Origin: a bacterium
Lineage (GTDB): Bacteria > UBA9089 > JAHJRX01
DNA: 64,000 nt
Direction: 5' to 3'
Assembly (NCBI GenBank): GCA_018830565.1
Contig: JAHJRX010000045.1
Coordinates: 10,626-74,625 of the forward strand
Shown: positions 9,669-57,522 of the stretch, piece by piece
Layout of the letters: each line of letters opens with the position of its first letter
Position numbering within the stretch: the first letter of the stretch is position 1
The notes under the pieces: generated by a model
What the model saw: only the letters and a program-made list of their open reading frames with translations
Databases searched by the model: none
Told to the model about the DNA's origin: nothing
Translations under genes and position numbers: made by a program

Positions 9669-9742
9669 TGGGGAGTCGTCTAGGGGTAGGACACAAGACT
9701 CTGGATCTTGCTGCGAGGGTTCGAATCCTTCCTCCCCAGCCA
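9669..9742 (+). tRNA. tRNA-Gln (anticodon CTG)
   Basis: Hand-folded cloverleaf: acceptor TGGGGAG/CTCCCCA, 3-bp D stem typical of tRNA-Gln, anticodon stem CAAGA/TCTTG with loop CTCTGGA, T-loop TTCGAAT, CCA encoded. Confidence 0.8.
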
Positions 9743-9747
9743 AAAAA

Positions 9748-9823
9748 GGCGCTATCGTCTAGAGGCCTAGGACAGGTGGTTCTCAGCCATCAGACCGGGG
9801 TTCGAATCCCCGTAGCGCTACCA
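9748..9823 (+). tRNA. tRNA-Glu (anticodon CTC)
   Basis: Acceptor GGCGCTA/TAGCGCT (G1-U72 wobble), D arm TCGTCTAGAGGCCTAGGAC as in bacterial tRNA-Glu, anticodon loop TTCTCAG, T arm CGGGG-TTCGAAT-CCCCG, CCA encoded. Confidence 0.8.
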
Positions 9824-42783: not shown

Positions 42784-44799
42784 ATGCGTATTCATGAGTT
42801 AGCCAAAATATTAAATGTTTCTAGTAAAGAGCTTATCAAAGAGTTAACTTCTTTTGGTATTAAAGCTGCTTCTCATGTAAGCTCTATTGATAATGACACC
42901 ACGACGAAAATTATTAATCTTCATAAAAAGCTTGTTCCAGAGAAAAAAACTCCCTTACCTCTTAAAGAGGAAGAAGAACCTCTTATTAAAGAAGAACCTC
43001 TTATTAAAGAAATAAAAGAAGAAATAAAAGAAATAGAAAAGATTTCAAAAAAGCTTCATATCTTAAAGATTCCTGAATCTCTTACTATTGGAGAATTATC
43101 TGGCCATCTTCAAAAACCAGTTAATGAAGTTATTAAGATTTTAATCCAAAATGGAAAAGTATGCACTATAAATAATTATTACGATCAAGACATTTTAGAT
43201 ACTTTAGCCTTACACTATGACCTTGAATTTAAAATTATTACCGAAGAAGAGATCCTACTAAAGGAAGAAGTGGAAGATGAAGGCCAACTTGTTCCTCGAC
43301 CTCCTATTATTACCATTATGGGGCATGTAGATCATGGTAAAACATTGCTTTTAGATGCTATTCGAGCTTCTAGCGTCGCTTCTAAAGAAGCAGGAGGAAT
43401 TACTCAACACATTGGAGCTTATAAGGTTAAATTAGATAAGGGAGAAGTTGTATTTTTAGATACACCTGGGCATGAAGCTTTTACAGCAATGAGAGCTCGA
43501 GGTGCCTCAGTGACAGATATTGTAGTCTTAGTTGTAGCTGCTGATGATGGAGTAATGCCTCAAACGGTAGAAGCAATCAACCATGCTAAAGCAGCTAATG
43601 TTTCTATTGTGGTAGCTATTAATAAGATAGATTTACCTAATGCTAACTTAAATAAGGTAAAACAACAACTAGCCGAATATGATTTAGTTCCAGAAGAATG
43701 GGGAGGAAAGACTATTTTTGTAGAAGTTTCAGCTAAAAAGCAGCTAGGCTTAAAGAACATCTTGGAAATGTTGCTTTTAGAAGCAGAAATATTAGAGCTA
43801 AAAGCTAATCCTAATCAAAAAGCTAAAGGCACAGTAATTGAGGCTCATTTAAATAAATCTAAAGGACCAGTAGCTACTTTTTTAGTTCAAAAAGGAAGTT
43901 TGAAGATTGGAGATTTCTTTGTCGTAGGCCAATATTATGGAAGAGTAAGAGGAATGTTTAGTGATGCTGGAGCATGGATTAAGAAGGCCCTTCCTTCCAC
44001 TCCGGTGGAAGTTTTAGGACTTTCTGGTCTTCCTTTGGCGGGTGATTATTTTTTTGTTACAGAAAATGAGCGAGAAGCTCGACAAATGAGCTTAAAAAGG
44101 CAAGAAGCTTTAAAAAAGAAGAAAGAAGTAAGTTCAAAGAAAATAACCTTGGAGAACTTATTTGATCAAATTAAGCAAGGAAAAATTAAAGAACTTAATA
44201 TTGTCTTAAAAGCTGATGTTCAAGGTTCCGTAGAAGCAATTAGAGATTCCTTAACTAAATTAGAGACTGAAAAAGTAAAGATTAAGATTATTCATCAAGG
44301 AACTGGTGGAATTAATGAGTCAGATGTTTTATTAGCCCAAACCTCCCATGCGATCATTATAGGATTTAATGTTCGCCCTAATGCTAATGCAGCTAAAATA
44401 GCTTCTCATCAAGATATTAATATTAGAACTTATAGAATTATTTATGAGGTAATTTCTGATATCAAGAAAGCTTTAGAGGGACTATTAGAGCCAGAATATA
44501 AAGAAAATACCCTTGGTATAGCAGAAGCTAGAGATCTTTTTAAAACCCCTAAAATAGGAGTAATTGTTGGTTGTTATGTGCGAGAAGGAAAAGTTACTCG
44601 GAGTGCAAGTTTGCGAGTAGTAAGAGAAGGAATAGTAGTCTACGAAGGAAAGATTGCTTCTCTTCGTCGATTTAAAGATGATGCCTCGGAAGTAGCAGCT
44701 GGATTTGAATGTGGTCTTAAAATTGAAAATTTTGATGATGTAAAGATAGGTGATATTTTAGAAGTATATGTCTTAGAAAGGATACCAGCTAAACTTTAA
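42784..44799 (+). CDS. infB: translation initiation factor IF-2
   Basis: G-domain motifs [13 protein letters not shown] and NKID; IF-2 C-terminal domains. Confidence 0.9.
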
Positions 44800-44975
44800 A
44801 ATTTAATTTAAAAATCATTAACATTAAAGATAAAAAGCTAAGATAAAAAGTTAAGATAAAATTTTATTTCTGATTCTTACCTCTATTCTTACCTCTATTC
44901 ATTAATTTTCCCCTAATAACTATGGTTACAAGTACTTGGATCGCTAAACTTCATCTCCCATCAAAAGAGTAGTTA

Positions 44976-45338
44976 ATGACTATGAGCCATAATCTTCAAA
45001 GACATTTAAGAGTAGCAGAACTTATCAAAGAAGAGATTAGCACTTTAATTGTTACTAAAAAGATAAAGGATCCTCGAATTGGCTTTGCTACAGTCACCAA
45101 GGTAAAACTTTCTAAAGACTTAAAAAATTGCGATGTCTTTATAAGTATTTATGGAAATGAAGAAGAGATAAAAAGGACTTTAGAAGGACTATCTCAAGCT
45201 AAGGGATTTATTAAGGGTCAAATAGCTAAAAATCTTAACCTCAGATGTATTCCTTTCATCAACTTTAAACATGATTTATCTATAGAATACAGTGATCATA
45301 TTCTAAAGATTATCGAGGGGCTGAATATTCCTAAATGA
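44976..45338 (+). CDS. rbfA: ribosome-binding factor A
   Basis: KH-like RbfA fold motif; conserved position after infB. Confidence 0.8.
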   Translation: MTMSHNLQRHLRVAELIKEEISTLIVTKKIKDPRIGFATVTKVKLSKDLKNCDVFISIYGNEEEIKRTLEGLSQAKGFIKGQIAKNLNLRCIPFINFKHDLSIEYSDHILKIIEGLNIPK

Positions 45339-45571
45339 ATACTTCCGAAAGAGAGATAGATGGAGTACTAATAGATTGATGGTCTAAATATTCCTAAAGG
45401 AGTATATTCCTAAATGAATACTTCCAAAAGAGAGATAGATGGAGTACTAATAGATTGATGGTCTAAATATTCCTAAAGGAGTATATTCATAAATGAATAC
45501 TTCCAAAAGAGAGATAGATGGAGTACTAATAGATTGATGGTCTAAATATTCCTAAAGGAGTATATTCCTAA
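45335..45571 (+). repeat. 79-bp tandem repeat x3, duplicating the rbfA stop/truB start junction (each unit carries an RBS, an ATG and a 14-codon mini-ORF)
   Basis: Units start at 45335, 45414 and 45493, about 97% identical; the genuine truB start at 45572 repeats the first 37 nt of each unit. Confidence 0.85.
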
Positions 45572-46306
45572 ATGAATACTTCCGAAAGAGAGATAGATGG
45601 AGTACTAAATATTTATAAGTCTCAAAATTTGACCTCTCATGATGTTATCGTAAAATTAAGAAGACTCATCAAGATAAGAAAAATTGGACATACCGGAACT
45701 TTAGACCCTCAAGCTACTGGTGTCCTTTTAATTTGCCTCGGTCAAGCTACTAAACTTTCAAGTTGGTTATCTTCTAAAGGGAAAGAATATATTGCTGGAA
45801 TGAAGATAGGGGTTGTTACTGATACCCAGGATATTTGGGGAAGCATTCTTAGTAAAAAAGAACCAGTTAATTTAAAAGAAGAGCAAATAAAAGAAGCATT
45901 TTTACGTTTTACTGGAGAAATAACTCAGGTTCCTCCTATGTATTCTGCCGTTAAGTGGAAAGGAAAAAAGTTATATCAATTGGCCAGGAAGGGGTATATA
46001 GTAGAAAGAGTTCCGCGTAAAGTAATGATAAGCTCTTTAGAATTAATAAGCTATCAAGAAGATTCCTATCCAGAGGTAGTATTTAAAGTAAGTTGCTCTA
46101 CTGGAACTTATATTAGGACTTTATGTGAAGATATAGGTAACTATTTAGGATATGGAGGATGTTTGTCTTCTCTTGTCAGAACTAGGATTGATTCATTTCT
46201 TCTTGAAGACACCCTCACTTTAGAAAAACTTACTAAAATCATAGAAAATGACCTTCTTTTTAATTACTTAATACCCATAGAAAAAGTGTTAAATGGCTTC
46301 TCATGA
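45572..46306 (+). CDS. truB: tRNA pseudouridine(55) synthase
   Basis: GHTGTLDPQATGVLLI catalytic motif. Confidence 0.85.
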   Translation: MNTSEREIDGVLNIYKSQNLTSHDVIVKLRRLIKIRKIGHTGTLDPQATGVLLICLGQATKLSSWLSSKGKEYIAGMKIGVVTDTQDIWGSILSKKEPVNLKEEQIKEAFLRFTGEITQVPPMYSAVKWKGKKLYQLARKGYIVERVPRKVMISSLELISYQEDSYPEVVFKVSCSTGTYIRTLCEDIGNYLGYGGCLSSLVRTRIDSFLLEDTLTLEKLTKIIENDLLFNYLIPIEKVLNGFS

Positions 46307-47265
46307 GCTTCATAAAAGATATCTTTAATTTTAATTCTAAACTACTTAAAAAGCGTGGATCTATAGTAACTATAGGGGTTTTTGATGGAGTTCATCGAGG
46401 ACATCAAGAAATTATTAAAAGAGTAGCTGCTGAAGGAAATTTTAAAGGTCTAATAAGTCTAGTGATAACTTTTTATCCTCATCCTCTTCAAGTAATCTCT
46501 AAAAATTCTCCTTTATTAATTTATAACTTAGAAAAAAGAATCAAGCTTATAAAAAAATTAGGCATAAAAAAGGTCTTAGTTATTAACTTTAATCCAGTAA
46601 TAGCTACTTTATCTCCAGAAGACTTTGTCAGTCAAATTTTAATTGATAAGCTTAATATGAAGAAGATATGGGTAGGAACAGATCATACTTTTGGAATTAA
46701 GAAGGGGGGGGATTTTAGTTTACTAAAAGAGATAAGTCAAAAATATAGCTTTGAAGTAGAAAGCATTTCTCCTTTGAAGATTGATAAAGAGGTGGTTTGT
46801 AGTAGTGTCATTAGAAAATCTATAAGCGAAGGAGAAATCAAAAAAGCTAATAAGCTCTTAAATCACATCTATCGAATTACTGGAAAAGTAGCAGCAGGTA
46901 GTAAAAGAGGAGCAAAGATGGGTTATCCTACCGCTAATCTTTTATTAGAAAAAGAGTTTGTCATACCTTCTCAAGGAGAATATGCTACTTTTGTAAAATA
47001 TAAGAATAAATATTATCAAAGTTTTACTAATATAGGTATTCGTCCTACTTTTAAAGAACAAAACTTAATCTTAGAAACTCACTTATTTAACTTTTCTAAA
47101 GATATTTACCAAGAGACTATCACGGTGTATTTTATAGAAAAGATCCGTCCAGAGTTTTGTTTTCCTAATGGCCAAGAGTTAATTAAACAAATAGAGAAAG
47201 ACAAGATTTTAGTAAGTGAGATTTTAAATAGAGATGATTACCTATCTTTAATGAAAAAAATTTAA
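46303..47265 (+). CDS. ribF: bifunctional riboflavin kinase / FMN adenylyltransferase
   Basis: GVFDGVHRGHQ FAD-synthetase motif; C-terminal riboflavin kinase domain. Confidence 0.85.
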   Translation: MSFIKDIFNFNSKLLKKRGSIVTIGVFDGVHRGHQEIIKRVAAEGNFKGLISLVITFYPHPLQVISKNSPLLIYNLEKRIKLIKKLGIKKVLVINFNPVIATLSPEDFVSQILIDKLNMKKIWVGTDHTFGIKKGGDFSLLKEISQKYSFEVESISPLKIDKEVVCSSVIRKSISEGEIKKANKLLNHIYRITGKVAAGSKRGAKMGYPTANLLLEKEFVIPSQGEYATFVKYKNKYYQSFTNIGIRPTFKEQNLILETHLFNFSKDIYQETITVYFIEKIRPEFCFPNGQELIKQIEKDKILVSEILNRDDYLSLMKKI

Positions 47266-47444: not shown

Positions 47445-47714
47445 ATGGTCTTAGCTTTAGAAGATAAGAAAAACATTATTGAAAAATTTAAGCAACATGA
47501 AAGCGACACTGGTTCACCAGAAGTTCAAATTGCTATACTTAGTGCTCGCATTAGTTATTTAACGGAACATTTTAAAGTTTATCCTAAAGACCATCATTCT
47601 CGAAGAGGATTACTTAAGCTTGTTTCTCAAAGGAGAAGTCTTTTGGATTATTTAAAGAAGAAAGATAGTAATCGTTATCTTGTTCTTATCAAGAAACTAA
47701 ATATACGAAAGTAA
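47445..47714 (+). CDS. rpsO: 30S ribosomal protein S15
   Basis: 89 aa; GSPEVQIA and HHSRRGLL motifs; precedes pnp. Confidence 0.9.
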
Positions 47715-47822
47715 AAGAAAGATAGGAATCGTTATTCTTTATCAAGAAACTAAATATACGAAAGTAAAAGAAAGATAGGAATCGTTATTCTTTATCAAGA
47801 AACTAAATATACGAAAACAAAA
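47659..47822 (+). repeat. tandem repeat of about 53 bp x3, derived from the rpsO 3' end, in the rpsO-pnp intergenic region
   Basis: Native rpsO tail (58 bp) followed by two near-identical 53-bp copies starting at 47717 and 47770. Confidence 0.8.
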
Positions 47823-47835
47823 GAAAGGATTTTAC

Positions 47836-49917
47836 ATGTTTAGCACACAACAAGAAATTGCAGGTAGAGTTTTATCTATAGAGACAGGGAATTTGGCTAA
47901 CCAAGCCAATGGCGCAGTGGTAATAAGATATGGAGATACTGTCATTATGGTGGCAGCAGTAGCCTCTAAAGAGGCAAAAAAAGATCTAGACTTTTTTCCC
48001 TTAATTTGCGAACACAAAGAAAGAACATATGCTGCTGGAAAATTCCCAGGTGGTTTTATAAAGAGAGAAGGACGCTCTACAGAGAAGGAAATATTAACTT
48101 CTCGGTTGATCGATCGTCCTTTACGGCCTCTTTTTAATAAGGATTTTCGAAATGAGGTAGCGATTACCTCGACTGTGTTTTCCTATGACGGGGAAAATAG
48201 TTCTGATATTATCTCGATAATTGGTGCTTCAGCAGCCTTAATTATTTCAGATATTCCATTTGACAAACCTATTGGCGTGGTTCGTATTGGAAGGATAAAT
48301 GATAAATTTATTGTTAACCCAACCCTTAAGGAACAAAAAGAAAGTTCTTTAGATTTAGTTATTGCCGGAACTAACTCTTCTATAATGATGATTGAATGTG
48401 GAGCTTCTGAGGTTTCAGAAAGATTAATTTTAGAAGCTCTTGAATTTAGTCAGGAACATATAAGAAGGATAATAAAACTACAAGAAGATTTATATCAACA
48501 ATACCATAAAGAAAAATTGATTTTTGAAAATTTTACTGTGAATAAACAATTAAAGAATTTAGTCAGTGAATTTATAGAGCCAAAGGTGAGAAATATAAAT
48601 TTTGGACTGACTAAGCAAGAATGGCAAAAACAAATGGAGAGTGTTGAAAAAGAGACGATAGAAAGATTTAAAGATCAATTTCCAGGAAAAGAGGGTGAAA
48701 TTAAAGCAGTTATAGAAGAAAATGAGAAAGTGGTGATTCGGGAACGAATTATTAAAGAAGAGAAAAGGCCTGATGGTCGAGATCCTAAAGCTATTCGTTC
48801 TATTACTTGCCAGGTAGGTATCTTACCTCGAACTCATGGTTCTGGATTATTTACTCGAGGTCAAACTCAAGCTTTAGTAGTTACTACTTTAGGAACAGAA
48901 GAAGATGAACAAATCGTTGATAGCCTTGAAGGCAAAAATAGAAAGAAATTTATGTTACACTATAATTTTCCCTCTTATAGCATAGGCGAAACTAAGCCTG
49001 ATCGTGGTCCTGGAAGACGAGAAATAGGTCATGGAGCTTTAGCCGAAAGAGCTCTTTCTCCTCTTATTCCTAATGGAGAGGTCTTTCCTTATACTATTAG
49101 AGTAGTTTCAGATATTTTAGAATCTAATGGTTCTACCTCTATGGCCAGTGTCTGCGGAGGTACTTTATCCTTGATGGATGCGGGAGTTCCTATCCAAAGG
49201 CCTTGCTCTGGAATTGCCATGGGACTTATTGCCAGCCAAGAAAAGATTATTATTTTGAGCGACATTACCGGGTTAGAAGACCAGATTGGTGATATGGATT
49301 TTAAAGTAGCCGGGACAAGCGAAGGAATTACTGCTTTACAATTAGACGTTAAGGTAGAAGGCTTAAGTGTAGAAATGCTTAAGGGAGCTTTACACCAAGC
49401 TTATGAAGGACGACTCTTTATTTTAGGGGAGATGAATAAAAGCATTCAAAAGTCTGCCGAGAAAATTTCTATTTATGCTCCTCGGATTATTAAGATAGGA
49501 ATAAATCCTGATAAAATTAGAGATGTCATTGGTCCTGGAGGAAAAATTATTCGAAATATTATTGAGCTTACTGGAGCTAAGATTGATATTAAAGATAAAG
49601 GAGAAGTTTCTATTTCTTCTTGCGATGAAGAAAAAGCTAATCAAGCTTTAGAAATGATTAATTGTTTAATAGCTGAAGTAGAGGTAGGAAAAATTTATCA
49701 AGGAAAAGTAATCAGGATAACAAATTTTGGAGCTTTTGTAGAGGTGTTACCAGGAAAAGAAGGATTGGTTCACATTTCTCAATTAGCTAACTACCATGTT
49801 AGAAAAGTAGAGGATATTTTAAAAGAAGGCGATAAAGTCTTAGTAAAAGTAATGGAGATTGATGAACAAGGTCGAATTAATTTAAGTCGTAAAGCTGCTT
49901 TAACGGACAAAGGTTAG
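47836..49917 (+). CDS. pnp: polyribonucleotide nucleotidyltransferase (PNPase)
   Basis: Two RNase PH domains, KH and S1 domains. Confidence 0.9.
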   Translation: MFSTQQEIAGRVLSIETGNLANQANGAVVIRYGDTVIMVAAVASKEAKKDLDFFPLICEHKERTYAAGKFPGGFIKREGRSTEKEILTSRLIDRPLRPLFNKDFRNEVAITSTVFSYDGENSSDIISIIGASAALIISDIPFDKPIGVVRIGRINDKFIVNPTLKEQKESSLDLVIAGTNSSIMMIECGASEVSERLILEALEFSQEHIRRIIKLQEDLYQQYHKEKLIFENFTVNKQLKNLVSEFIEPKVRNINFGLTKQEWQKQMESVEKETIERFKDQFPGKEGEIKAVIEENEKVVIRERIIKEEKRPDGRDPKAIRSITCQVGILPRTHGSGLFTRGQTQALVVTTLGTEEDEQIVDSLEGKNRKKFMLHYNFPSYSIGETKPDRGPGRREIGHGALAERALSPLIPNGEVFPYTIRVVSDILESNGSTSMASVCGGTLSLMDAGVPIQRPCSGIAMGLIASQEKIIILSDITGLEDQIGDMDFKVAGTSEGITALQLDVKVEGLSVEMLKGALHQAYEGRLFILGEMNKSIQKSAEKISIYAPRIIKIGINPDKIRDVIGPGGKIIRNIIELTGAKIDIKDKGEVSISSCDEEKANQALEMINCLIAEVEVGKIYQGKVIRITNFGAFVEVLPGKEGLVHISQLANYHVRKVEDILKEGDKVLVKVMEIDEQGRINLSRKAALTDKG

Positions 49918-56357: not shown

Positions 56358-56966
56358 ATGAGTGTAGCTAATATCTTAACTCTTACTAGAGTTTTACTTG
56401 TCCCACCATTCTTATACTTTATTTCCTGTAAGAGTTTCTTTTTTCAAAACGTGGCTTTATTTATCTTTATCTTAGCCGCCGTAACTGACATGTTAGATGG
56501 ATATTTTGCCAGGCGGAATAAGATTATTACTAACTGGGGAAAATTTATGGACCCCTTAGCTGATAAAATATTAATTTCTGCTGCTTTTATCTCATTCGTG
56601 AGTATTCCTTCTTTATATATTCCTGCTTGGATGGTGGTTTTAATTATTAGTAGAGAATTTATTATTACTGGCCTGCGATTAATTGCCAGCAATGAAGGAA
56701 CGGTAGTAGCTGCTTCTATGGAAGGCAAAGTAAAGACTACTTCTCAAATTATAACTATTATTGCCATTTTGCTTCTCCTTACCTTCAAAAGTTATCTTAA
56801 TCAAGATAATATTTATCAAAGTTTAAGTTACGAACCGAGACTTTTTATAGAGTATATTTTTCACTTACTTCCTTACTCTTTAGTTCTCGCCACTACCTTC
56901 TTTACTTTATATTCAGGAGTAAGTTATCTTATTGAGTATAAGGACTTAGTTTGTGATTTAAGATAG
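56358..56966 (+). CDS. pgsA: CDP-diacylglycerol--glycerol-3-phosphate 3-phosphatidyltransferase
   Basis: CDP-alcohol phosphatidyltransferase motif DGYFAR...G...DPLADK. Confidence 0.75.
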   Translation: MSVANILTLTRVLLVPPFLYFISCKSFFFQNVALFIFILAAVTDMLDGYFARRNKIITNWGKFMDPLADKILISAAFISFVSIPSLYIPAWMVVLIISREFIITGLRLIASNEGTVVAASMEGKVKTTSQIITIIAILLLLTFKSYLNQDNIYQSLSYEPRLFIEYIFHLLPYSLVLATTFFTLYSGVSYLIEYKDLVCDLR

Positions 56967-57068
56967 CCAGTCTTTTATTATCTATAAGGACTTATTTTGG
57001 GATTTAAGATAGCCAGTCTTTTATTATCTATAAGGACTTATTTTGGGATTTAAGATAGCCAGATCTTT
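56931..57068 (+). repeat. 46-bp tandem repeat x3 spanning the pgsA stop / pgpA start junction
   Basis: Units at 56931, 56977 and 57023; the third unit carries a 1-nt insertion and substitutions that create the pgpA reading frame. Confidence 0.8.
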
Positions 57069-57522
57069 TATTATCTACTTGGCTTCTTTGTCTTTTGTAG
57101 GATATTTTCCTTTTTTTCCTGGAACACTGGGAACTTTATTAGCTTTGTTGGCTTATCTATATTTATCTAAGGTTACCTTAAGTGTTTTTTGGTATGGTTT
57201 AATCTTAGTTTCATTAATATTGATCGGTGTTCTTATCTGTCATTTAGCGGAAAAATTTTTAAGCGAAAAGGACCCACCCCAAATAATCTTAGATGAATTT
57301 TTAGGATATCTAGTGGCTGTTTTCTTAATTCCCTTTGACCTAAGAAATATAGTTGCTTCTTTCCTTTTGTTTCGATTTTTAGACATAAGTAAACCTTTTT
57401 TTATAAAGAAACTTCAAAATATCTCAGGAGGAATAGGGATCTTAGCTGATGATTTAGCCGCTGGAATAATAACTAATTTAATTCTTCGCCTAAGTCAGTT
57501 ACTTGAGAAATTAATTAAATAA
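57043..57522 (+). CDS. pgpA: phosphatidylglycerophosphatase A
   Basis: PgpA-family motifs (FPGTLGTLLA, DEFLGY); TTG start inside the third repeat unit. Confidence 0.6.
   Translation: MGFKIARSFIIYLASLSFVGYFPFFPGTLGTLLALLAYLYLSKVTLSVFWYGLILVSLILIGVLICHLAEKFLSEKDPPQIILDEFLGYLVAVFLIPFDLRNIVASFLLFRFLDISKPFFIKKLQNISGGIGILADDLAAGIITNLILRLSQLLEKLIK

What the first reader, a model, noticed from the sequence alone, without database searches (positions are those of the whole stretch)
45335..45571. Triplicated rbfA-stop/truB-start junction forms a relay of coupled mini-ORFs
Three 79-bp near-identical units each contain AAAGGAG, an ATG and the first 12 codons of truB followed by TGA, which overlaps a further ATG (TGATG). 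The first unit's ATG overlaps the rbfA stop (ATGA). The arrangement could relay terminating ribosomes across 237 nt to the genuine truB start (a leader-peptide/attenuation-like device), or it could be a slippage hotspot enabling copy-number phase variation of truB translation.
Basis: seen in the sequence. Interest (0 to 1): 0.55.

Follow-up and report, generated by a model that had tools for sequence, protein, structure and literature searches.

The report
Variable tandem repeat between rbfA and truB
The stop/start junction of two housekeeping genes (rbfA and truB) in an uncultured groundwater bacterium has been copied head-to-tail into a real 79-bp minisatellite whose unit number differs (0, 1, at least 2, 3) between near-identical strains; it is most likely a fast-mutating by-product of DNA slippage, not a purpose-built ribosome relay.

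Summary
Three 79-bp units (45335-45571) plus a partial fourth copy, which is the genuine truB start, form a 98%-identical array (TRF 45325-45608). Each unit carries AAAGGAG, an ATG and a 14-codon decoy of the truB start ending in TGATG. The first ATG overlaps the rbfA stop (ATGA).

Three relatives (TruB 63-72% identical) have a plain rbfA/truB ATGA overlap and no repeat. Within the species (flanks 99.2-99.9% identical), independent assemblies carry 0, 1, at least 2 or 3 units. At least five array haplotypes exist, some on almost identical flanks, and many contigs break inside the array. It is therefore a real, hypervariable minisatellite.

I found no attenuator-like features: no terminator or promoter match, RNA folding no better than shuffles, no Rfam hit. 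Each relay hop would cross a 34-nt gap, a distance at which reinitiation is 80-100% lost in E. coli experiments. All alleles with one or more units give truB the same SD-led start.

Two unrelated arrays in the same window (rpsO/pnp, pgsA/pgpA) have the same gene-junction architecture and also vary. This points to a general mutational process. The closest analogue is the MIRU-VNTR array between senX3 and regX3 in M. tuberculosis. Interest is modest.

The parts
44982..45338 (+). rbfA coding sequence (118 aa from ATG 44982; an upstream in-frame ATG at 44976 would give 120 aa)
   Evidence: ORF list. Pfam RBFA on the identical product in other assemblies. The relatives' RbfA is 118 aa and ends ...IPK* like this one.
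45335..45338 (+). ATGA overlap of the rbfA stop with the ATG of unit 1. This is the ancestral rbfA/truB junction type.
   Evidence: Sequence. The same ATGA overlap joins rbfA and truB directly in three relatives and in the 0-unit allele L014.
45325..45608 (+). Whole tandem array as detected: period 79, 3.6 copies, 98% identity. It includes 10 nt of the rbfA 3' end (ATATTCCTAA) and the first 37 nt of genuine truB.
   Evidence: TRF, register layout.
45335..45413 (+). Unit 1 (G13/C75): 37 nt copy of the truB 5' end plus a 42 nt degenerate copy of the rbfA 3' end carrying the SD
45414..45492 (+). Unit 2 (A13/A75)
45493..45571 (+). Unit 3 (A13/C75). Its 3' part supplies the SD and upstream context of the genuine truB start.
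45335..45379 (+). Decoy mini-ORF 1, MNTSEREIDGVLID*, start-coupled to the rbfA stop
   Evidence: Translation.
45414..45458 (+). Decoy mini-ORF 2, MNTSKREIDGVLID*
45493..45537 (+). Decoy mini-ORF 3, MNTSKREIDGVLID*
45396..45402 (+). Shine-Dalgarno-like AAAGGAG of unit 1, 11 nt before the next ATG (repeated at 45475-45481)
   Evidence: An SD core lies upstream of 22/53 long ORFs in the window, against a 12% background.
45554..45560 (+). AAAGGAG 11 nt upstream of the genuine truB ATG: the predicted working ribosome-binding site of truB in all alleles with one or more units
   Evidence: It is absent from the 0-unit allele and from relatives.
45379..45387 (+). Two-codon ORF ATG GTC TAA, opened by the TGATG overlap (repeated at 45458-45466 and 45537-45545)
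   Evidence: Sequence.
45572..46306 (+). truB coding sequence (244 aa). An in-frame TAA directly precedes the ATG, so no N-terminal extension is possible.
   Evidence: Pfam TruB_N, TruB_C_2. The N-terminus aligns with the relatives' start.
47658..47827 (+). Second gene-junction array of the same kind: 53-nt units copied from the rpsO 3' end, lying in the pnp leader. One versus two extra units among strains.
56937..57077 (+). Third gene-junction array: 46-nt units spanning the pgsA stop and the pgpA start. Two versus three copies among strains. It also creates a decoy start.

Best explanation
The feature is a hypervariable minisatellite (VNTR) made from the rbfA-stop/truB-start junction itself.

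Shown:
- The ancestral state is a 4-nt ATGA overlap of rbfA and truB.
- In this species a segment has been amplified head-to-tail. It holds the first 37 nt of truB plus a degenerate copy of the last ~26-28 nt of rbfA, which itself contains a 16-nt internal duplication.
- The unit number changes much faster than point mutations accumulate: 0, 1, at least 2 and 3 units sit on flanks that differ by 0-1 SNP in 3.7 kb.
- Unit order is reshuffled between alleles.

Inferred:
- The founder event was a microhomology-mediated duplication (CTAAA occurs at both breakpoints). Later expansion and contraction run by replication slippage or unequal recombination across the 47-nt stretch ATATTCCTAA + truB 5' end that is identical apart from the G/A site. 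That route can also delete the whole array and restore the ATGA junction exactly.
- Functionally, the array uncouples truB from rbfA. Ribosomes finishing rbfA can restart only on the first 14-codon decoy, and they then stop 34 nt short of the next start. truB is instead translated by fresh initiation at the AAAGGAG that the last unit puts 11 nt upstream of its ATG.
- The decoy mini-ORFs are by-products of a unit length (79) that is not a multiple of 3.
- Unit number beyond one is expected to have little or no effect on TruB output, so the polymorphism is probably near-neutral.
For: - Array anatomy.
- Ancestral junction: three relatives (TruB 72, 70 and 63% identical) have rbfA/truB ATGA overlaps and no repeat. 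Their 36 kb of fetched DNA holds no tandem repeat of period 25 or more.
- Copy number within the species:
  - 3 units: window and ERZ27247117.
  - 1 unit: ERZ27247128, ERZ27247121, GCA_018816215.1.
  - 0 units: GCA_043814425.1.
  - At least 2 units, with a contig break: JGI 3300014656, GCA_018818825.1.
  - Broken inside the array: GCA_018813185.1, JGI 3300014613, ERZ27247106 and three Logan assemblies.
- Flanks are 99.2-99.9% identical. The 0-, 1- and at-least-2-unit alleles share a right flank differing by 0-1 SNP in 3.7 kb.
- Unit haplotypes are reshuffled: A; A-G; G-A-A*; and a G/A75 recombinant in L031.
- The 42-nt non-truB part of the unit aligns to the rbfA 3' end with a 3-nt deletion and three substitutions, all at third codon positions. 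It also has a 16-nt internal duplicate (14/16 identical) whose two changes turn AAATGAAT into AAAGGAGT (sequence).
- No structure, terminator, promoter or Rfam family.
- The unit is local: it is absent elsewhere in the window and from viral contigs.
- Two unrelated arrays in the window have the same junction architecture and are also polymorphic.
- Reinitiation falls 80-100% at a 38-nt gap in E. coli reporters (PMC10666635).
- SD use is real in this genome (22/53 genes versus 12% background), and six other ATGA junctions show that coupling is its normal arrangement.
Against: - No expression data of any kind exist for this uncultured organism, so 'near-neutral' and 'SD-driven truB initiation' are inferences.
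- The 11-nt SD-ATG spacing is longer than the usual optimum.
- Both substitutions in the 16-nt sub-duplicate create the SD core. That looks like selection, so at least the first unit may matter for fitness.
- All but one of the assemblies that resolve or enter the junction retain at least one unit.
- Copy numbers come from short-read assemblies. These cannot be fully trusted at tandem repeats, and I could not inspect reads.
- The 0-unit contig has a mosaic left flank, so it may be a minority variant or a co-assembly product.
Confidence: 0.68

Rival explanations
1. Expression tuning knob or contingency locus. Unit number, or at least the 0 versus 1-or-more state, changes how much TruB (and perhaps downstream RibF) is made. 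It would toggle truB between rbfA-coupled and SD-driven initiation, and add decoy starts or standby sites that titrate or recruit ribosomes. The hypervariability would then be maintained because it diversifies expression in the population.
For: - Very fast, reversible copy-number change on near-identical flanks.
- The 0-unit allele restores the ancestral coupled junction exactly.
- The two substitutions in the internal 16-mer both build an SD, suggesting selection on truB initiation after uncoupling.
- Arrays sit at three operon junctions in 64 kb.
- MIRU arrays in the senX3-regX3 spacer of M. tuberculosis are reported to affect regX3 expression (PMC4213456).
Against: - The truB start context (42 nt upstream and the ORF) is identical for every allele with one or more units, so extra units have no obvious handle on truB.
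- truB is a housekeeping tRNA-modification gene with no known need for variable expression.
- The three arrays share no sequence, which fits a mutational process better than a selected device.
- There are no expression data.
Confidence: 0.18
2. Ribosomes terminating on rbfA restart on mini-ORF 1 and are then handed from mini-ORF to mini-ORF across 237 nt to truB. Coupling would be preserved, or made conditional as in an attenuator.
For: - ATGA overlap of the rbfA stop with mini-ORF 1.
- Every unit has an SD and an ATG 34 nt after the preceding stop.
- TGATG at each mini-ORF stop.
- MIRU units were likewise described as small ORFs overlapping the flanking genes (PMC3184786).
Against: - Each hop is 34 nt. 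A 38-nt gap cut reinitiation by 80-100% in E. coli (PMC10666635), so three hops would pass well under 1% of the coupled flux.
- The TGATG ATG opens only ATG GTC TAA, in a frame that leads nowhere.
- No alternative hairpins, no terminator, folding z = -0.02.
- The peptide has no run of regulatory codons.
- The array lies inside an operon, not in a 5' leader.
- The 0-unit and 1-unit alleles occur in the same species.
- The same decoy-ORF pattern arises at the pgsA/pgpA array.
Confidence: 0.08
3. Assembly artefact. The repeat, or the differences in its unit number, are produced by the assembler and not present in the cells.
For: - All sequences are short-read metagenome assemblies.
- Many contigs end inside the array.
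- The window and ERZ27247117 differ at two other arrays while being 99.94% identical.
- The 0-unit contig has a mosaic flank.
Against: - The unit junction (truB 5' end joined to TAGATTGATGG...) is present in at least 12 assemblies made by four pipelines (ENA, NCBI, JGI, Logan).
- The window's three units differ by SNPs, which make every 141-mer unique and the path resolvable. A second assembly reproduces the same unit order.
- The 0- and 1-unit junctions need k-mers that span unique flank, 47 or 126 nt, and unique flank. Only reads with that structure can supply them (reasoning, not a test).
- Contig breaks at a repeat are what a real array longer than k, or a population mixed in copy number, produces.
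Confidence: 0.03
4. A dispersed mobile or interspersed repeat family (MIRU-, MITE- or REP-like) that inserted between rbfA and truB.
For: Location between operon genes and a unit size similar to MIRUs (PMC3184786, PMC4213456).
Against: - The whole unit is explained by local sequence (truB 5' end plus rbfA 3' end).
- The unit-specific 32-mer occurs nowhere else in 64 kb even with 3 mismatches, and a 29-mer from it has no exact match in viral contigs.
- The other two arrays are unrelated to it.
- No inverted repeats or stable hairpin.
Confidence: 0.02

Closest known systems
MIRU-VNTR arrays in Mycobacterium tuberculosis, especially the senX3-regX3 intercistronic array (Supply et al. 1997, as summarised in PMC3184786 and PMC4213456)
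   Same: - Tandem units of similar size (77 and 53 bp there; 79, 53 and 46 bp here) lying between co-transcribed genes.
- Unit number differs between strains (H37Rv versus CDC1551).
- Units contain small ORFs whose ends overlap the flanking genes.
- Both were proposed to affect expression of the downstream gene.
   Different: - MIRUs are a dispersed family of about 40-50 related copies and may be transposed. Here each array is built from the local gene junction, and the three arrays share no sequence.
- There is no homology to MIRUs, and the host is a 33% GC uncultured groundwater bacterium.
- Only the first mini-ORF overlaps a flanking gene. The last one stops 34 nt before truB.
Translationally coupled overlapping gene pairs (ATGA / TGATG; termination-reinitiation; PMC6728339, PMC10666635)
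   Same: - The ancestral and 0-unit junction is a classic -4 overlap.
- rbfA/mini-ORF 1 keeps that overlap.
- Each mini-ORF stop carries a -1 overlap (TGATG).
   Different: The array destroys the rbfA-truB overlap and inserts 34-nt untranslated gaps, beyond the distance at which coupling works in tested systems. The TGATG start leads to a 2-codon dead end.
Simple-sequence-repeat phase variation (contingency loci, e.g. Haemophilus; PMC12721329)
   Same: A hypermutable repeat tract next to a gene start, with reversible gain and loss of units.
   Different: The units are 79 bp, not 1-7 bp. Changes do not shift the truB reading frame or a promoter spacing, and no ON/OFF logic is evident.
Leader-peptide transcription attenuators / regulatory uORFs
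   Same: Short translated ORFs upstream of a gene.
   Different: No terminator/antiterminator structures and no regulatory codons. The location is internal to the operon, and the ORF sequence is just the truB start.

Membership tests
Minisatellite / VNTR | Head-to-tail tandem units of roughly 10-100 bp with high unit-to-unit identity | tested here: met
   Period 79, 3.6 copies, 98% matches, no indels. Units are 77-78/79 identical.
Minisatellite / VNTR | Unit number differs between closely related strains | tested here: met
   0, 1, at least 2 and 3 units in assemblies with 99.2-99.9% identical flanks. Based on assemblies, not reads.
MIRU (mycobacterial interspersed repetitive units) | Dispersed family: related units at many loci of the genome | tested here: not met
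   The unit-specific 32-mer is found only in this array. The other two arrays are unrelated (local alignment scores 7-11). Only 64 kb of the genome could be examined.
MIRU (mycobacterial interspersed repetitive units) | Intercistronic position in an operon, with unit ORFs overlapping the stop and start of the flanking genes | tested here: inconclusive
   Intercistronic: yes. The first mini-ORF overlaps the rbfA stop (ATGA). The last mini-ORF ends 34 nt before the truB ATG, so there is no overlap on that side.
MIRU (mycobacterial interspersed repetitive units) | Sequence homology to the MIRU consensus / mycobacterial host | not tested
   No MIRU sequence was compared. The unit is fully derived from local rbfA/truB sequence, which makes homology implausible.
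Leader-peptide transcription attenuator | Intrinsic terminator and mutually exclusive alternative hairpins | tested here: not met
   0 terminator-like sites in 44700-46000. Fold z = -0.02 for 45300-45640 and -1.1 to +0.5 for single units. No Rfam hit at E<=1.
Leader-peptide transcription attenuator | Leader peptide with regulatory (repeated or rare) codons, placed in the 5' leader of the regulated operon | tested here: not met
   The peptide MNTS[E/K]REIDGVLID has no codon run. The array lies between the third and fourth genes of nusA-infB-rbfA-truB.
Termination-reinitiation coupling (relay) | Stop and next start overlap or lie within a few nucleotides | tested here: not met
   Met only for rbfA to mini-ORF 1 (ATGA). 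Each mini-ORF stop to the next productive ATG is 34 nt. A 38-nt gap costs 80-100% of reinitiation in E. coli (PMC10666635).
Phase-variable contingency locus | A change in repeat number switches the gene ON/OFF through a frame shift or promoter spacing | tested here: not met
   The truB ORF, its preceding in-frame TAA and its 42-nt upstream context are the same in all alleles with one or more units. The 0-unit allele has an intact coupled start. No promoter-like site in the array.
Phase-variable contingency locus | Measured effect of repeat number on expression | not testable with these tools
   Needs reporters, metatranscriptomes or proteomics.

The most novel reading that the evidence does not exclude
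This lineage carries a class of 'gene-junction minisatellites': fast, reversible tandem amplifications of stop/start junctions, of which three lie in this 64 kb and all are polymorphic. They would switch operon genes between the ancestral translationally coupled state (0 units) and an uncoupled, SD-driven state with decoy starts (one or more units). That would amount to a population-level way of varying the stoichiometry of housekeeping operon products in an energy-starved deep-groundwater bacterium.
Probability: 0.1. Interest if true: 0.6.

Novelty: new member of a known kind. Interest (0 to 1): 0.3.

Why it matters
If the best explanation holds, this is an ordinary though unusually clean bacterial VNTR. 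It has three practical consequences:
- It explains why assemblies of this organism break between rbfA and truB.
- It warns annotators about decoy starts upstream of truB.
- It gives a ready strain-typing marker for a deep-groundwater population.

It is also a natural allelic series (0, 1, 2, 3 units). The series converts a coupled ATGA junction into an SD-led start preceded by decoys, so it could be cloned directly to measure how much coupling, gap length and decoy initiation sites matter.

Only if unit number proves to change expression, and such junction arrays prove common across this genome, would it amount to a new regulatory principle.

Tried and rejected
- **Rfam.** The whole window at gathering thresholds gave only two tRNAs at 9669-9820. 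The 44780-45700 region at E<=1 gave nothing.
- **Promoter/terminator scan.** The only promoter-like hits lie outside the units, and there are no terminators.
- **RNA folding** of the array and of single units is no more stable than shuffles. I looked for an SD-sequestering hairpin (GGAGUAU with AUACUUCC). It is weak (-5.2 to -5.6 kcal/mol) and not significant.
- **T-arm mimic for TruB.** I considered this for the UUCCGAAA stretch. No supporting stem, fold or Rfam/tRNA hit was found, so I dropped it.
- **Dispersed-element idea.** Rejected.
- **Genome-contig scan with TruB** returned only distant relatives (40-49% identity), so the species itself is not among the representative genomes scanned.
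- **Metagenome-contig scan** returned one distant hit. Neither scan helped with copy number. The exact-protein look-ups did.
- **Origin of the 42-nt non-truB part of the unit.** Two alignments to the rbfA 3' end are possible, because that end is internally repetitive. I prefer the one that explains the whole unit (3-nt deletion plus 16-nt sub-duplication), but I cannot exclude the other (internal deletions fusing AAAG+GAG).
- **Taxonomy.** The organism could not be placed. NCBI names are just 'bacterium', and the nearest named TruB relative is a Candidatus Desantisbacteria MAG at 45%.

Full report
**1. The observation**

The window is AT-rich (33% GC). Around the finding it carries the conserved operon nusA-infB (42784-44799)-rbfA (44982-45338)-truB (45572-46306)-ribF (46303-47265)-rpsO (47445-47714)-pnp (47836-49917).

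Tandem Repeats Finder reports an array at 45325-45608 with period 79, 3.6 copies, 98% matches and no indels, score 547. It is by far the strongest repeat in the window.

In register, three complete units begin at the ATGs 45335, 45414 and 45493, and the genuine truB ATG is at 45572. The repeat extends 10 nt to the left into rbfA (ATATTCCTAA) and 37 nt to the right into truB.

The units differ at two positions only: G/A at unit position 13 and C/A at position 75.

- AAAGGAG, 11 nt before the next ATG.
- An ATG followed by the first 12 truB codons.
- A TGA overlapped by another ATG (TGATG).
- ATGA linking the rbfA stop to the first unit.

Corrections:
- The mini-ORF is 14 codons, MNTS[E/K]REIDGVLID*.
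- Units 2 and 3 have Lys for Glu at codon 5.
- The TGATG start opens only ATG GTC TAA.

The unit-specific 32-mer occurs three times against zero expected.

**2. What the unit is made of**

Thirty-seven nucleotides are the truB 5' end. The remaining 42 (TAGATTGATGGTCTAAATATTCCTAA + AGGAGTATATTCCTAA) are a degenerate copy of the rbfA 3' end, AAGATTATCGAGGGGCTGAATATTCCTAA. Relative to rbfA this copy has:
- A 3-nt deletion.
- Three substitutions, all at third codon positions of the rbfA frame (GAG/GAT, GGG/GGT, CTG/CTA).
- An extra 16-mer, ATATTCCTAAAGGAGT. It is a 14/16 copy of the junction 16-mer ATATTCCTAAATGAAT.

The two changes in the 16-mer destroy the copied ATG and create the GGAG core of the SD.

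The breakpoints share CTAAA (rbfA ...TTCTAAAGATT, truB ...TACTAAATATT). From this I infer a microhomology-mediated founder duplication. It was followed by decay of the non-coding rbfA copy and then by recent amplification and homogenisation of the 79-nt unit.

A second, less complete alignment of the 42 nt to rbfA is possible, because the rbfA end is internally repetitive. The exact history is therefore not settled.

**3. Relatives**

TruB homologues at 72, 70 and 63% identity (P0002, P0004, P0005) were located on their contigs. In all three, rbfA (118 aa, ending ...IPK*) overlaps truB by ATGA and there is no repeat. The 36 kb fetched from these and from more distant relatives holds no tandem repeat of period 25 or more.

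The ancestral state is therefore the common -4 overlap. This is also the usual arrangement in this window, which has six other -4 junctions.

**4. Same species, other assemblies**

Exact look-ups of RbfA and TruB returned contigs from ENA, NCBI, JGI and Logan assemblies. Their flanks are 99.2-99.9% identical to the window. Junction states:

| Units | Assemblies | Unit order or note |
|---|---|---|
| 3 | window, ERZ27247117 | same order G, A, A* |
| 1 | ERZ27247128, ERZ27247121, GCA_018816215.1 | always the A variant |
| 0 | GCA_043814425.1 | exact ATGA junction |
| at least 2 | JGI 3300014656, GCA_018818825.1 | contigs end inside the array; order A, G, ... |
| recombinant first unit | ERZ27247106 | G13 with A75, then an A unit |
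| broken inside the array | GCA_018813185.1, JGI 3300014613, three Logan assemblies | copy number unresolved |

On the right flank, the 0-, 1- and at-least-2-unit alleles (L014, L013, L015) differ by 0-1 SNP in 3.7 kb. Copy number therefore changes far faster than point mutation. Because its nearest haplotypes carry units, the 0-unit allele is most simply a secondary deletion that regenerates the ancestral junction.

Caveats:
- These are short-read assemblies and I could not see reads.
- The 0-unit contig has a mosaic left flank.

Against a pure artefact:
- The unit junction is seen by four pipelines.
- The window's units are SNP-tagged, so the path is resolvable at k = 141.
- The 0- and 1-unit junctions need k-mers that only reads with that structure can supply. 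This last point is reasoning, not a test.

**5. Is it a regulatory device?**

I found no sign of one:
- No promoter-like or terminator-like site lies in the units.
- The 341-nt region folds no better than shuffles (z = -0.02).
- Single units and start regions give z from -1.1 to +0.5.
- No Rfam family matches, even at E<=1.

The relay idea requires post-termination ribosomes to cross 34 nt from each mini-ORF stop to the next ATG. In E. coli two-reporter constructs, a 38-nt gap cut reinitiation by 80-90% in two gene pairs and abolished it in a third. The authors conclude that scanning of intergenic regions occurs rarely if at all (PMC10666635). Three such hops would pass a negligible flux.

The array does clearly do one thing. 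It places an AAAGGAG 11 nt upstream of truB, which the 0-unit allele and the relatives lack. SD cores precede 22 of 53 long ORFs here, against a 12% background, so this organism uses SDs.

My mechanistic reading, which is inference:
- The 0-unit allele translates truB by coupling to rbfA.
- Alleles with one or more units translate truB by de novo SD-dependent initiation.
- The rbfA-coupled ribosomes are spent on the first 14-codon decoy.
- All alleles with one or more units share the same truB start context, so extra units should matter little.

**6. The same thing happens elsewhere in the window**

- *rpsO/pnp.* At 47658-47827 the last 56 nt of rpsO, including its stop, are followed by one or two 53-nt copies in the pnp leader. 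The copies carry a 3-nt deletion and a few substitutions. The window and JGI 3300014656 have two extra copies. Five other assemblies have one.
- *pgsA/pgpA.* At 56937-57077 a 46-nt unit spanning the pgsA stop and the pgpA start is present three times in the window and twice in ERZ27247117. The middle copy again creates a decoy start with a short ORF.

The three unit sequences are unrelated. Together these arrays show:
- Decoy-start/mini-ORF patterns arise automatically when a stop/start junction is tandemly duplicated with a unit length that is not a multiple of 3.
- The species has a general tendency to form and vary such arrays.

This favours a mutational explanation, filtered by the fact that junction-spanning duplications leave both genes intact.

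**7. Comparison with known systems**

The closest analogue is the MIRU-VNTR array between senX3 and regX3 in M. tuberculosis. It has 77- and 53-bp tandem units whose number differs between H37Rv and CDC1551 (PMC4213456). MIRU units carry ORFs whose ends overlap the adjacent genes of the polycistron (PMC3184786).

The present array works like that but is not a member. It is not part of a dispersed family, and it is built from local sequence.

It also fails the defining tests for an attenuator, for a termination-reinitiation relay, and for frame- or promoter-based phase variation (see the membership table).

**8. Provenance (partly from my own knowledge)**

The JGI, JAHI/JAHJ and 'Modern_marine.mb' names fit the Fennoscandian Shield deep-groundwater MAG collection from Äspö HRL and Olkiluoto (PMC8275790). 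I could not confirm the accession mapping. NCBI calls the organism only 'bacterium'.

**9. Verdict**

The 'slippage hotspot' reading is supported by allele data. The 'relay/attenuator' reading is not supported.

This is a new example of a known kind of element, an intercistronic VNTR. It is of modest interest, with a small chance that junction minisatellites act as a reversible coupling switch in this lineage.

Noticed in passing
window 47658-47827: A 53-nt tandem array made from the rpsO 3' end (including its stop) fills the rpsO-pnp spacer and pnp leader. The window and JGI 3300014656 have two extra units, five other conspecific assemblies have one. The non-coding copies resemble each other more than the coding copy.
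   Followed up: partly
window 56937-57077: A 46-nt tandem array spans the pgsA stop and the pgpA start: three copies in the window, two in ERZ27247117. The middle copy carries a decoy TTG start with a short ORF, and a 1-nt indel (CCAGTCT versus CCAGATCT) distinguishes the real pgpA start.
   Followed up: partly
window 44800-44975 (remnant at 44922-44960; short repeats 44827-44861 and 44873-44900): Relatives have a DUF503 gene between infB and rbfA. Here only its first 13 codons survive (MVTSTWIAKLHLP versus MVTGTCIIKLHIP), in a 176-nt spacer that also holds 13-nt and 12-nt tandem repeats. The gene seems to have been deleted in this species.
   Followed up: partly
window 42957-43032 (infB N-terminal region): In-frame 18-nt and 12-nt coding repeats (EEPLIK / EIKE) lie in the InfB N-terminal region. 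InfB is called as 671 aa in some conspecific assemblies and 670 aa in others, so a coding length polymorphism is possible.
   Followed up: no
L014/L024 (GCA_043814425.1), 2.4 kb left of the junction: The left flank of the 0-unit allele is a mosaic of the window-type and L013-type SNP haplotypes. This is either recombination between strains near the array or a co-assembly chimera.
   Followed up: no
window 45572-46306: TruB here and in its closest relatives is only 240-248 aa. Most homologues at about 50% identity are 295-311 aa, so a C-terminal segment may be missing in this lineage.
   Followed up: no
window, whole: There are six ATGA (-4) gene overlaps in 64 kb, including truB/ribF at 46303-46306. 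Only about 42% of long ORFs have an SD core within 20 nt upstream. The genome seems to rely heavily on overlaps for downstream gene translation.
   Followed up: partly
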